From the sequence record OQ743992: 64,000 nucleotides of DNA. The stretch is one strand, 5' to 3'. Position numbers and translations under genes: made by a program. The stretch is from Escherichia phage vB_EfeM_pEP20. This document shows positions 43,439 through 45,285 of the stretch, in pieces; within the stretch, counting starts at the first letter, position 1, and every line of letters starts with the position of its first letter. The notes beneath the pieces were generated by a model, which made no database searches, was not told where the DNA came from, and saw only the letters and a list, made by a program, of their open reading frames with translations.

Positions 43439-43444
43439 AAGTTG

Positions 43445-43472
43445 TTGACATAGAAAATTTGGTGAGTATACT
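43445..43472 (+). promoter_or_regulatory. Sigma70-like promoter (TTGACA, 16 bp, TATACT)
   Basis: Read directly downstream of the ligase stop. Confidence 0.4.
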
Positions 43473-43535
43473 GAGCAGCATAAACCAACTGGTACTCACC
43501 AGCATCACTTAAGAATCTTTAAGAGGGGTTTTTAA

Positions 43536-43635
43536 GTGAGGTATGGTAAGGCGCGGTGAGGTCAGGTAATGTGATGTTTGGTTTGGTGCGGTGATGTGCT
43601 GTCCGGTAATGTCCGGTGCGGTAAGGTATGGGTAG
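43536..43635. repeat. Pentanucleotide-periodic array 1: about 19 units of NNGGT
   Basis: gaggt atggt aaggc gcggt gaggt caggt aatgt gatgt ttggt ttggt gcggt gatgt gctgt ccggt aatgt ccggt gcggt aaggt atggg. Confidence 0.6.
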
Positions 43636-43700
43636 TTAGTCTCAGCTACATTAAAATGAAACTTACCTTTTTAAAAGGTCTTTAAGAGGGTTTTTTAATA

Positions 43701-43770
43701 AGGTCTGGTGTAGTAGGGTTGGGCATGGTATAGTCCGGTGTGGTGTGGCACGGTATGGGTGGATGGTAGT
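43701..43770. repeat. Pentanucleotide-periodic array 2: about 14 units of NNGGT
   Basis: aaggt ctggt gtagt agggt tgggc atggt atagt ccggt gtggt gtggc acggt atggg tggat ggtag. Confidence 0.6.
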
Positions 43771-43866
43771 AGCCACGTTAAAAATCTACCAAGTTTCTAA
43801 AGAGTCTTCTGTTGAGGGTTCTTTACAAACAACTTAACAATCAACTAAAGTGTGGAGCTAAATGCT

Positions 43867-44454
43867 ATGAAACTGTTAAATATCAAAATCACTGGTACTC
43901 GTCCTTTCCTGAGCCATAACGATACGTTGTCAGACCCGTTAAATCCTCTGACAAAATATCACAAGTCTCTGTCCAGTAAACGTAAAAAGACTGACGAAGA
44001 CTATGCGCTCTTAGCAGAAAGCCAACTGGTAACTTCTTGTTACTACGATGAGCAACTAGGTTTTGTTATGAACGGTGAGATGATTGAGGCTTGCATCAAG
44101 TCTGGTGCAAAACTCAACAAACTTGGTAAGGTAATTGACCGAGCCATTATGCTGACAGATGTAGTCTTCCCAATGACTATCAAGAACTGTCCAGCAAACC
44201 CACAAGAACTTGCTAAGAATCCAGACTTTATCTATGCTAAGTCTGTTAAGATTGGTACAGCACGAGTTATGAGCTACCGTCCAATCTTCCGTGACTGGTC
44301 TGTAGAGTTCGGTTTGATGTTCGATGAAGAGCAAATCACACGAGAGGAACTCCTGATGGTTCTGGAAAATGCTGGTAACCTTTGTGGTGTAGGTGATTGG
44401 CGTCCACGCTTTGGTCGTTTTTCTGTAGAAGTTATTTCAGAAGGTAACGTTTAA
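43867..44454 (+). CDS. Hypothetical protein (195 aa)
   Basis: Start moved to ATG (MKLLNIK...) 9 nt after GTGGAG. Confidence 0.5.
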
Positions 44455-44456
44455 TT

Positions 44457-44897
44457 ATGAATACAAAAGCATTAGCAGCAAAGTTTAGTTACGGTGACAC
44501 TGTATCACATTCTGAGATGGACACCTTCTTAGGTATTGTGAAGCCAACTTATCAAGGCGACATTGTTAAGTACGAAGATGAAATGAAGGCTTATGCACTT
44601 ACACGTCTAAACCGACTTGAGAAGTTTATTGAGAAGCTTCTTAAAGAAGAGAAGATTTATCTGGTTGCTTCAATGGGTGTTGGTTATCGTGTGGTTGAAC
44701 CTAAACATCAAGCAACTATTGCAAAACGTAAAATGTCTGGTAAGATTGGTCGAGCTTTAAAGCAAGCCACTCAAGCTATTGAGAATGTGAACACTATGGA
44801 ACTTAGCCATCAAGAACGCTCACGACTGATTGAACAGCAAAACCACTTAGCTGCTATGAAAGCTAACATTAACAAGCAACGTAGAAAACCTTTCTAA
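44457..44897 (+). CDS. Hypothetical protein (146 aa)
   Basis: ORF 3 nt after upstream stop. Confidence 0.5.
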   Translation: MNTKALAAKFSYGDTVSHSEMDTFLGIVKPTYQGDIVKYEDEMKAYALTRLNRLEKFIEKLLKEEKIYLVASMGVGYRVVEPKHQATIAKRKMSGKIGRALKQATQAIENVNTMELSHQERSRLIEQQNHLAAMKANINKQRRKPF

Positions 44898-44908
44898 GTT
44901 GACTAGGT

Positions 44909-44931
44909 AGCCTCTTCGGAGGCTCCTTTTT
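44909..44931 (+). terminator. Intrinsic terminator (AGCCUC-UUCG-GAGGCU then U5)
   Basis: Hairpin plus U run immediately after the 44457-44897 stop. Confidence 0.55.
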
Positions 44932-44960
44932 AAAAGGTCTTTAAACAGGGTCTTTTAATA

Positions 44961-45026
44961 AGGTGCGGTGCTGTCCTGTTCTGTAGTGTCTGGTAAGACC
45001 TAGTAATGTTCGGTCAGGTATGGGTA
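44961..45026. repeat. Pentanucleotide-periodic array 3: about 13 units of NNGGT
   Basis: aaggt gcggt gctgt cctgt tctgt agtgt ctggt aagac ctagt aatgt tcggt caggt atggg. Confidence 0.6.
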
Positions 45027-45090
45027 GTTAGTCTCAGCTACATTAAAATGAGACTTACATCACTTAAGAGTCTTTTAAGAGGGTTTTTAA

Positions 45091-45176
45091 GTGAGGTGTG
45101 GCACGGTAATGTTAGGTAGGGTCAGGTCAGGTCAGGTGAGGTAAGGTAAGGTAATGTATGGAAGGATGGCAGTAGC
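45091..45176. repeat. Pentanucleotide-periodic array 4: about 16 units of NNGGT, including GGTCA x3
   Basis: gaggt gtggc acggt aatgt taggt agggt caggt caggt caggt gaggt aaggt aaggt aatgt atgga. Confidence 0.6.
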
Positions 45177-45212
45177 CTTATAAAAAATCTGCCAAATAAG
45201 CTATAAAATCTG

Positions 45213-45241
45213 TTGACAAGTCAGGTGTTATAGCCTATTTT
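45213..45241 (+). promoter_or_regulatory. Sigma70-like promoter (TTGACA, 17 bp, TATTTT)
   Basis: Read directly; about 45 bp upstream of the ATG at 45286. Confidence 0.4.
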
Positions 45242-45285
45242 TATACTCAATGTAATACAAAATTTAATATAGCTTTGAGGTTATT

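What the first reader, a model, noticed from the sequence alone, without database searches (positions are those of the whole stretch)
43439..45285. Four arrays with strict 5-bp periodicity (NNGGT)n in two ~400-bp noncoding blocks flanking a two-gene module
Each array is 13-19 consecutive pentamers with GGT (or GT) in phase. The arrays are embedded between two kinds of conserved leader (aagagggtttttaagtgaggt or ttttaataaggt) and two kinds of trailer (gggtagttagtctcagctacattaaaatga.acttac or g..agtagcc..ttaaaaatct.ccaa), combined differently in the two blocks. Five-bp phasing excludes coding and is not CRISPR-like. Candidate roles: an origin or priming hotspot (GGTC motifs fit T7-type primase recognition, and this phage has a gp4-like primase-helicase), a protein-polymer binding track, a recombination hotspot bounding a mobile cassette (genes 43867-44897), or a G/U-rich 5' leader. 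I know of no described element of this form.
Basis: seen in the sequence. Interest (0 to 1): 0.85.

Follow-up and report, generated by a model that had tools for sequence, protein, structure and literature searches.

The report
Phage VIPR guide-RNA locus (known)
The four 5-base-periodic arrays are the guide RNAs of a VIPR system, a CRISPR-related, phage-encoded RNA-guided DNA-silencing system first described in April 2026 preprints, so the pattern is real and remarkable but already explained.

Summary
Four arrays of in-phase NNGGY pentamers lie on the + strand only, at 43533-43632, 43700-43759, 44960-45024 and 45088-45162. Nothing comparable occurs elsewhere in the 64 kb, and the arrays far exceed dinucleotide shuffles.

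The window is a Felixounavirus, 99.7% identical to phage PHB11. The gene between the blocks (43867-44454) encodes a protein that matches PDB 36pp "SUSP1 Vipr protein" (E 1.5e-127). It is 97.4% identical to the phiSUSP1 protein. The next gene is 98.6% identical to SUSP1's accessory gene, vap1.

The locus is therefore a type II VIPR system (bioRxiv 10.64898/2026.04.26.720920 and .720927). Each array plus its trailer is a ~100-nt vrRNA. One Vipr protomer binds each GGY. The free NN dinucleotides read double-stranded DNA, skipping every third base, and silence transcription.

I confirmed these points independently:
- NN positions are hypervariable while GGY is fixed across relatives.
- The trailers form a covarying pseudoknot.
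- The 1-nt-skip code holds: 54 of 74 Felixounavirus guides match E. coli chromosomal satellites, against 8% of shuffled guides.
- Window guides C and D, and half of guide A, match satellite genes. Guide B has no target.

Its "protein-polymer binding track" idea is right in spirit. Novelty: already known.

The parts
43445..43472 (+). Sigma-70-type promoter (TTGACA-16-TATACT) upstream of vrRNA A, vrRNA B, vipr and vap1
   Evidence: Consensus scan gives 11 of 12 matches. The first ~130 nt of the block are conserved even in Felix O1. Function is inferred, not mapped.
43503..43532 (+). Leader type L1 of vrRNA A (CATCACTTAAGAATCTTTAAGAGGGGTTTT). Role in vrRNA 5'-end formation is unknown.
   Evidence: Repeat family D2/D4. 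The motif is restricted to the four units and conserved in relatives.
43533..43667 (+). vrRNA A: 20 in-phase NNGGY units (43533-43632) plus a T1 pseudoknot tail (43628-43667)
   Evidence: The 3' 11 guide units match a satellite tape-measure gene at 21 of 22 NN positions, but the whole guide scores only 68%.
43666..43699 (+). Leader type L2 of vrRNA B (CCTTTTTAAAAGGTCTTTAAGAGGGTTTTTTAAT)
43700..43794 (+). vrRNA B: 12 units (43700-43759) plus a T2 pseudoknot tail (43755-43794)
   Evidence: No target was found above background.
43867..44454 (+). vipr gene: 195-aa RAMP-family protein that polymerises on the vrRNA
   Evidence: PDB 36pp_D 'SUSP1 Vipr protein', E 1.5e-127 over residues 1-195. It is 97.4% identical to the phiSUSP1 gene product, and 13 of 14 published contact residues are present; residue 175 is V here and in SUSP1, though the paper writes T175. 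Homologues sit next to NNGGT arrays in 33 unrelated IMG/VR loci.
44457..44897 (+). vap1: 146-aa Vipr-accessory protein
   Evidence: 98.6% identical to the gene downstream of vipr in phiSUSP1. The paper names that gene vap1. No Pfam, NCBIfam, PADLOC or PDB match.
44909..44930 (+). Intrinsic-terminator-like hairpin plus T-run after vap1. It overlaps the start of leader L2 of vrRNA C.
44960..45059 (+). vrRNA C: 13 units (44960-45024) plus a T1 pseudoknot tail (45020-45059), preceded by leader L2 at 44925-44959
   Evidence: The guide core matches 20 of 22 NN positions in the DNA N6-adenine-methyltransferase gene of E. coli satellites (L151, L153, L158), with the skipped base at the codon wobble position. 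The best shuffled guide scores 17 of 22.
45088..45197 (+). vrRNA D: 15 units (45088-45162) plus a T2b pseudoknot tail (45158-45197), preceded by leader L1 at 45058-45087
   Evidence: The guide core matches 20 of 24 positions at the same small hypothetical gene in three satellites. The best shuffled guide scores 19 of 24, so this is marginal.
45213..45241 (+). Sigma-70-type promoter of the downstream gene (45286-45669). This marks the boundary of the locus and is not part of VIPR.

Best explanation
The region 43445-45197 is a type II VIPR (Viral Interference Programmable Repeat) locus of the SUSP1 clade. It contains vipr (43867-44454), vap1 (44457-44897) and four vrRNA genes, two upstream and two downstream.

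Each vrRNA is a transcript of roughly 95-135 nt. It consists of NNGGY pentamers followed by a ~40-nt pseudoknot tail.

The mechanism below was shown for the 97%-identical SUSP1 system in the cited preprints and is inferred here:
- Vipr, a minimal RAMP/Cas7-like protein, polymerises along the vrRNA, one protomer per pentamer.
- It flips out and sequesters each GGY and presents the NN dinucleotides.
- The NN dinucleotides base-pair with double-stranded DNA in a gapped register, two paired bases and one skipped (NNx).
- This forms an R-loop 'triplex' that blocks transcription.
- The NN dinucleotides are therefore the programmable part, which explains why they are hypervariable between phages while GGY and the phase are fixed.

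The natural targets are mainly a family of chromosomal satellites of E. coli that carry Felixounavirus-like tail genes. The system is thus a phage weapon against its own parasites and competitors.
For: Protein:
- PDB 36pp 'SUSP1 Vipr protein' matches at E 1.5e-127.
- Vipr is 97.4% and Vap1 98.6% identical to phiSUSP1.
- The published RNA/DNA-contact residues H17, K33, R39, E71, M72, K82, G87, K88, R138, C173, D177, W178 and R179 are all present.

RNA:
- The four arrays are on one strand only, co-oriented with the genes.
- Across 87 unique arrays (1056 pentamers) from relatives, positions 1 and 2 take any base. Position 3 is G 75%, T 15%, A 10%, C 0%. Position 4 is G 98%. Position 5 is T 92%, C 8%.
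- Leaders and tails are conserved while NN is scrambled, and lengths change in multiples of 5.
- The tail is an H-type pseudoknot: 91% of cells are paired versus 28-48% for slid controls, and 9 of 11 pairs show changes on both sides.

Association:
- Loci fetched only by the DNA pattern (GGTNN)6GGT carry Vipr homologues in 33 cases.

Code and targets:
- With one skipped base, 54 of 74 Felixounavirus guides reach at least 80% NN match in 13 satellite loci, against 12 of 148 order-shuffled guides.
- Skip values of 0, 2 and 3 give only 2-5 of 74.
- Window guide C scores 20/22 and D 20/24. The 3' half of guide A scores 21/22.
- The window contains no self-target.

Literature: 10.64898/2026.04.26.720920 and 10.64898/2026.04.26.720927.
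Against: - Nothing was measured in this phage. Expression of the four vrRNAs, their ends, Vipr binding and silencing are all transferred from SUSP1.
- Guide B has no identifiable target. Guide A matches over only half its length, and guide D's match is marginal, with its skipped base at codon position 2 rather than at the wobble position.
- vrRNAs C and D lie downstream of a terminator-like hairpin, and no sigma-70 promoter was detected in their leaders. How they are expressed is unexplained.
- The source papers are preprints.
Confidence: 0.95

Rival explanations
1. The arrays act on DNA as a replication origin or priming hotspot. They would supply clustered T7-type primase sites (GGTC), or a G-rich non-template strand that forms R-loops downstream of the strong promoter.
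For: - The phage family encodes a gp4-like primase/helicase (Felix O1 ORF101).
- A strong promoter precedes block 1.
- The G-rich strand is the non-template strand.
Against: - A primase site needs no strict 5-nt phase. The next base after GGT is C in only ~15% of units.
- The arrays co-occur with Vipr homologues in 33 unrelated phage contigs.
- The NN positions match satellite genes under a 1-nt-skip code far above shuffled controls, which a priming site cannot explain.
- The tails are covarying RNA pseudoknots.
Confidence: 0.02
2. The repeated units are primarily recombination hotspots or mobile regulatory cassettes, like the PeSL elements of T4-type phages. They would bound a mobile two-gene cassette and have no RNA function of their own.
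For: - The vipr-vap1 module is present in only about half of the genus: 129 records with the protein versus 257 with the region.
- The number of units varies from 1 to 5, and leaders and tails are recombined in different combinations.
- Guide A looks chimeric.
Against: - Recombination between units probably does shape the locus, but it explains none of the following: the fixed GGY with position 3 never C, the covarying pseudoknot, the target matches, or the solved Vipr-vrRNA structure of the 97%-identical system.
Confidence: 0.02
3. The arrays encode a G/U-rich sponge RNA or 5' leader that titrates a host ring-shaped or periodic RNA-binding protein in a TRAP-like mode, rather than a guide.
For: - A 5-nt period and about 12 units per array resemble TRAP's 11 (G/U)AG repeats. 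This rests on my own knowledge.
- The arrays are on a single strand, co-oriented with transcription.
Against: - The periodic binder is identified as the phage's own Vipr.
- A sponge does not require NN to match other genomes, yet NN does match them.
Confidence: 0.01

Closest known systems
Type II VIPR system of Escherichia phage SUSP1 (bioRxiv 10.64898/2026.04.26.720920; structures in 10.64898/2026.04.26.720927; PDB 36pp)
   Same: - Vipr is 97.4% and Vap1 98.6% identical.
- The genomic position is the same, between the DNA ligase gene and the next early gene.
- Both have GGY/NN pentamer vrRNAs with a pseudoknot tail.
- Both target the same class of element, E. coli satellites carrying Felixounavirus-like tape-measure and baseplate genes.
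   Different: - Layout: this phage has 2 vrRNAs upstream and 2 downstream, whereas SUSP1 has 1 upstream and 3 downstream.
- The guide (NN) sequences differ.
- vrRNA A has 17-18 variable units, slightly above the published 9-16.
- Nothing has been tested experimentally in this phage.
Class 1 CRISPR-Cas effector backbone (Cas7 filament on crRNA)
   Same: A RAMP protein with an RRM core, G-loop and thumb polymerises along a guide RNA. It flips out bases at a fixed period, and a conserved handle or tail caps the variable part (per the preprints).
   Different: - The period is 5 nt with 3 bases sequestered and 2 read, not 6 nt with 5 read.
- The target is read as NNx.
- There are no identical direct repeats or spacers, no cas1/cas2 and no PAM.
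- The system is phage-encoded, and it silences transcription rather than cleaving.
TRAP-trp leader RNA (Bacillus)
   Same: A protein oligomer recognises a trinucleotide repeated with 2-3-nt spacers on a single-stranded RNA. This is an analogy from my own knowledge.
   Different: - TRAP is a closed 11-mer ring and the spacers carry no information.
- It has no DNA targeting and no homology to Vipr.

Membership tests
VIPR system (type II, SUSP1 clade) | A Vipr protein (minimal RAMP homologue). Clade membership is defined in the paper as more than 90% identity to SUSP1 Vipr. | tested here: met
   PDB 36pp_D matches at E 1.5e-127 over residues 1-195. The protein is 97.4% identical to the phiSUSP1 genome-encoded protein, and the published contact residues are conserved.
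VIPR system (type II, SUSP1 clade) | An adjacent vipr-accessory gene (vap1) | tested here: met
   The ORF at 44457-44897 is 98.6% identical to the ORF directly downstream of vipr in phiSUSP1. The name is taken from the paper's locus description.
VIPR system (type II, SUSP1 clade) | Flanking vrRNAs made of tandem YNNGG/NNGGY pentamers (9-16 in the paper), with conserved GGY and hypervariable NN | tested here: met
   - The four arrays have 12-20 in-phase units.
- Across 1056 pentamers of relatives, position 4 is G in 98%, position 5 is Y in 100%, position 3 is never C, and positions 1 and 2 take any base.
- NN is scrambled between phages that are 98-100% identical in Vipr.
- Array A is slightly longer than the published range.
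VIPR system (type II, SUSP1 clade) | A conserved ~40-nt 3' tail that folds into a hairpin/pseudoknot | tested here: met
   On 22 distinct tails, two interleaved helices (columns 5-8/19-22 and 10-16/31-37) are 91% paired. 9 of 11 pairs change on both sides, 0 of 500 shuffles reach this, and slid controls give 28-48%.
VIPR system (type II, SUSP1 clade) | Guides match natural targets by the 1-nt-skip (NNx) rule at 80% or more of NN positions, mostly in an E. coli satellite, with no self-targeting | tested here: met
   - Clade level: 54 of 74 guides reach at least 80% at skip 1, against 2-5 of 74 at skip 0, 2 or 3 and 8% of shuffled guides.
- Window: guide C 91%, D 83%, A 68% (3' half 95%), B at background.
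- The best self-match in the window is 60-73%, which is background.
VIPR system (type II, SUSP1 clade) | vrRNAs are expressed as ~100-nt small RNAs, co-purify with Vipr, and repress transcription of matched DNA | not testable with these tools
   Shown for SUSP1 by small-RNA sequencing, pull-down, GFP repression and cryo-EM. Predicted lengths here are 135, 95, 100 and 110 nt.
CRISPR-Cas | An array of near-identical direct repeats (about 23-50 bp) separated by unique spacers, with cas1/cas2 adaptation genes | tested here: not met
   TRF and the repeat finder show only the pentamer arrays and the leader/tail families, with no repeat-spacer array. The locus has only two small genes with no Cas family hits.
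Origin or primase-site cluster (T7-type) | Clustered primase recognition sites (5'-GTC with preferred GGGTC/TGGTC) next to an AT-rich unwinding element and promoter. The function is independent of phase and of NN content. | tested here: not met
   The base after GGY is C in only ~15% of units. The strict phase, the Vipr linkage and the NNx target matches are not properties of such sites. Replication itself cannot be tested here.

The most novel reading that the evidence does not exclude
vrRNAs may circulate as free-standing 'guide cassettes' that are used in trans.

- Felix O1 has no vipr or vap1 anywhere in its genome yet keeps one intact vrRNA unit.
- Other relatives without the module at this locus keep one or two units, and their guides still match E. 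coli satellites at 86-95%.
- Two satellites carry phage-type vrRNAs but no vipr in the fetched 15 kb.

These orphan guides would then be loaded onto Vipr supplied by a co-infecting phage or helper. That would amount to guide piracy and shared immunity among phages and their parasites.

In-register recombination between units, as suggested by the apparently chimeric guide A, would be how new guides arise in the absence of any Cas1-like adaptation machinery.
Probability: 0.25. Interest if true: 0.6.

Novelty: already known. Interest (0 to 1): 0.35.

Why it matters
VIPR is a newly described form of RNA-guided DNA recognition. It uses a gapped 2-of-5 guide code that reads 2 of every 3 target bases, and it has been proposed as the ancestor of the CRISPR RAMP effectors.

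This window adds no new principle. It does show three things:
- A blind reading of raw sequence can recover such a locus.
- The published code and the satellite targets can be reproduced independently with simple pattern counts.
- The system is an accessory module present in about half of the Felixounavirus genus.

The leftovers are concrete, testable extensions of the published work:
- orphan vrRNAs in phages that lack vipr;
- vrRNAs carried by satellites;
- the unknown route by which the four RNAs acquire their 5' ends.

Tried and rejected
Database and literature searches that gave nothing:
- Rfam 15 at gathering thresholds and ARAGORN found nothing in the window, so vrRNA is not yet an Rfam family.
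- Pfam, NCBIfam and PADLOC gave nothing for either protein. PHROGs gave only 'unknown function' families.
- Literature searches on Felixounavirus repeats, Felix O1 small RNAs and the strings NNGGT/GGUNN were uninformative.
- The KhF3 GenBank note 'possible binding site of StbAB' led nowhere.

Hypotheses I considered before the protein was identified, then dropped:
- TRAP-like ring binding.
- An R-loop origin resembling immunoglobulin switch pentamers.
- BoxA-like antitermination, because the leader contains TCTTTAA.
- An anti-Shine-Dalgarno sponge.
- Two-quartet G-quadruplexes. Position 3 is G in only 75% of units.
- Chi-like or RecA-preferred GT-rich DNA.
- BREX GGTAAG decoys.
- RNA polymerase pause arrays.

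None of these explains the free NN positions, the strict phase and the Vipr linkage together.

Target searches:
- Exact-pattern scans for the four window guides found nothing in IMG/VR.
- Guide A found nothing in JGI metagenomes.
- Guide B found nothing in GTDB genomes.
- Guide B gave 2 metagenome hits. Their flanks do not extend the match and the contigs are unrelated, which is chance level for 20 specified bases.

No sigma-70 promoter was detected inside the leaders.
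Full report
**Observation.** Scanning the whole window for GT dinucleotides kept in 5-nt phase finds exactly four arrays, all on the + strand and none on the - strand.

| Array | Coordinates | In-phase units |
|---|---|---|
| A | 43533-43632 | 20 |
| B | 43700-43759 | 12 |
| C | 44960-45024 | 13 |
| D | 45088-45162 | 15 |

The longest in-phase runs (18 and 13) exceed every one of 1000 dinucleotide shuffles, whose maxima are 7 and 6. GT-GT pairs at lag 5 are four to five times the shuffle mean.

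Each array sits in a unit of leader, array and trailer. There are two leader flavours and two trailer flavours, combined as A=L1+T1, B=L2+T2, C=L2+T1 and D=L1+T2. The leader core TCTTTAAGAGGGTTTTTAA occurs nowhere else in the window.

A consensus sigma-70 promoter lies at 43445-43472. A terminator-like hairpin follows the second gene at 44909-44930. Another promoter at 45213-45241 serves the next gene.

**Source and relatives.** The window is a Felixounavirus, 99.7% identical to Escherichia phage PHB11 over this region. In relatives (L001-L032) the leaders and trailers are conserved, but the first two bases of every pentamer are scrambled.

Array length changes in steps of 5, and the number of units ranges from 1 (Felix O1) to 5 (Z31). 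Over 87 unique arrays (1056 pentamers), the composition by position is:

| Position | Composition |
|---|---|
| 1 and 2 | any base |
| 3 | G 75%, T 15%, A 10%, C 0% |
| 4 | G 98% |
| 5 | T 92%, C 8% |

The 195-aa protein encoded between the blocks is 98-100% identical among the same phages, while the noncoding blocks are only 75-88% identical. The NN positions therefore evolve much faster than their surroundings, under a rigid NNDGY frame.

**The turning point.** Besides plain microsatellites, it returned dozens of unrelated viral contigs with degenerate NNGGT arrays, often several in tandem with short punctuation.

A local tblastn of the window's 195-aa protein against these loci found homologues next to the arrays in 33 of them. 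The loci had been retrieved by DNA pattern alone. The real unit is therefore this protein family plus the arrays.

A sequence search of the PDB then matched the protein to entry 36pp, 'SUSP1 Vipr protein', at E 1.5e-127 over its full length. A literature search for that name found two preprints of April 2026.

**What the literature says.** The sources are 10.64898/2026.04.26.720920 and 10.64898/2026.04.26.720927.
- VIPR systems consist of Vipr (a minimal RAMP homologue), usually one accessory gene (vap), and vrRNAs.
- A vrRNA has 9-16 YNNGG repeats with conserved GGY and hypervariable NN, followed by a conserved tail. In the SUSP1 clade the tail contains a pseudoknot.
- In SUSP1-infected cells, four ~100-nt vrRNAs are made and co-purify with Vipr.
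- Vipr forms a helical filament with one protomer per repeat. The filament sequesters GGY and presents NN.
- NN pairs with double-stranded DNA while every third target base is skipped. This forms an R-loop triplex that represses transcription.
- In the SUSP1 clade, 18 of 20 assignable guides target an E. coli satellite whose tape-measure and baseplate genes resemble those of SUSP1.

**Membership tests done here.**

1. Protein. Vipr is 97.4% and Vap1 98.6% identical to the proteins encoded by phiSUSP1 (locus L017). All 13 contact residues that could be checked are present: H17, K33, R39, E71, M72, K82, G87, K88, R138, C173, D177, W178 and R179. Residue 175 is V in both this phage and SUSP1.

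2. Repeat tract. The composition and hypervariability are as described above.

3. Tail. On 22 distinct tails, two interleaved helices are 91% paired, against 28-48% when partners are slid. 9 of 11 pairs change on both sides. Examples are GTAG/CTAC, GTGG/CCAC and AAGG/CCTT in one helix, and AGTCTC/GAGACT, AATCG/CGATT, GGTAG/CTACC and GGCAG/CTGCC in the other.

4. Targets. The window gene after the tape-measure gene (58029-58826) is 93-94% identical at DNA level, over 70% of its length, to a 'phage baseplate protein' gene in 474 of 5426 complete E. coli genomes. These genes lie in ~10-kb integrated elements that also carry recombinase, Dam-like methyltransferase, HTH and tape-measure genes.
   - Against 13 such loci, 54 of 74 unique Felixounavirus guides reach at least 80% NN match with one skipped base, and 31 reach at least 90%. 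Five are perfect, the longest covering 13 units.
   - Only 12 of 148 order-shuffled guides reach 80%, and none reaches 90%.
   - With 0, 2 or 3 skipped bases only 2-5 of 74 reach 80%. This independently reproduces the published code.

5. This window's guides.
   - Guide C matches 20 of 22 positions in the satellite methyltransferase gene on the antisense strand, with the skipped base at the wobble position. The best shuffled guide scores 17.
   - Guide D matches 20 of 24 at one small gene in three satellites. The best shuffled guide scores 19, and the skipped base falls at codon position 2, so this match is marginal.
   - Guide A matches the satellite tape-measure gene at 21 of 22 positions over its 3' eleven units, but not over its 5' part.
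   - Guide B has no match above background.
   - The window contains no self-target.

**What remains inferred.** Expression, RNA ends, Vipr loading and silencing were not measured for this phage. They are transferred from a 97%-identical system.

How the RNAs get their 5' ends is open. No sigma-70 promoter is detectable in the leaders, and units C and D lie downstream of a terminator-like hairpin. The text of the preprint that I read does not address biogenesis.

**Rivals.** A primase or origin role, a recombination-hotspot role and a host-protein sponge each explain one feature. None explains all of the following together: the strict phase, the free NN positions, the covarying pseudoknot, the Vipr linkage across unrelated phages, and the NNx matches to satellites.

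Recombination between units probably does shape the locus. The module is present in only about half of the genus, unit number varies, and guide A looks chimeric. That is evolutionary history, not function.

**Verdict.** It is otherwise superseded.

The element is a VIPR locus of the SUSP1 clade and is already known from 2026 preprints. Interest for a specialist is therefore modest, despite the intrinsic importance of the system. The residual leads are listed under the novel case and the passing observations.

Noticed in passing
L164/L165 (Felix O1, NC_005282.1), vrRNA-like unit at about 57780-57850 on the - strand; also L004 2602-2700: The type phage Felix O1 has no Vipr or Vap1 homologue anywhere in its 86,155-bp genome (tblastn best E 0.33). 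It still keeps one complete unit between the ligase gene and ORF87: promoter, L1 leader, 12 in-phase pentamers and a T2b pseudoknot tail. Other relatives that lack the module at this locus (humlepung L008, L015, L019, L028) keep 1-2 units whose guides still match E. coli satellites at 86-95%.
   Followed up: partly
L154 3928-3987 (-) and L157 3943-3997 (-), E. coli chromosomal satellites: Two of 13 satellites carry a vrRNA with the phage-type pseudoknot tail, but no vipr or vap1 in the fetched ~15 kb. The L157 guide matches other satellites at 20 of 22 positions, which is consistent with the preprint. The L154 guide matches a host REP-like element (AGGCCTGATAAGCGTAGCGCATCAGGC) at 22 of 24 positions in L151 4031-4065, while the best shuffled guide scores 18. 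This could mean a guide aimed at a repeated host sequence, or it could be coincidence.
   Followed up: partly
window 58029-58826 (-), and L151-L163: The gene after the tape-measure gene is 93-94% identical at DNA level, over 70% of its length, to a 'phage baseplate protein' gene in 474 of 5426 complete E. coli genomes. The carriers are ~10-kb mosaic integrated elements inserted at several sites: mdtG/lpxL, the DUF72 gene near yecN, yciI/tonB and ymdF/wrbA. This points to recent gene exchange between Felixounaviruses and their satellites.
   Followed up: partly
window 43533-43632 (vrRNA A): Guide A is the longest, with 17-18 variable units, and looks chimeric. Its 3' eleven units match the satellite tape-measure gene at 21 of 22 positions, while the 5' units match nothing there. 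The related array in phage ASO1B (L003 1737-1828) shares the 3' part. This suggests guides evolve by in-register recombination.
   Followed up: partly
L035 6100-6500 (+), L150 (- strand, about 3390-3845 in reverse-complement coordinates), L130 (- strand, about 2825-3150 in reverse-complement coordinates): Other VIPR-type loci in IMG/VR have tandem vrRNA blocks of about 9-14 pentamers separated by short fixed punctuation. The punctuation is AAGGCTAATGGGT in L035 and L150, and ATGGCAGGT in L130, L140 and L149. In L035 and L150 the blocks start right after the stop codon of the Vipr homologue and end at a strong terminator hairpin. These are probably among the other array architectures mentioned in the preprint.
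   Followed up: no
window 44909-44959 and 43660-43699: The L2 leader always begins with CCTTTTTAAAAGG directly after a hairpin, which is either the vap1 terminator or a T1 tail. Each T1+L2 junction therefore looks like a weak intrinsic terminator, and T1+L1 junctions do not. Whether this sets vrRNA 3' ends is unknown.
   Followed up: no
L001 3232-3242 (phage KhF3, KT184315.1 86014-86024): The GenBank record annotates an 11-bp 'direct repeat sequence4 possible binding site of StbAB' just upstream of the first vrRNA unit. This is an older, unsupported guess about the region.
   Followed up: no
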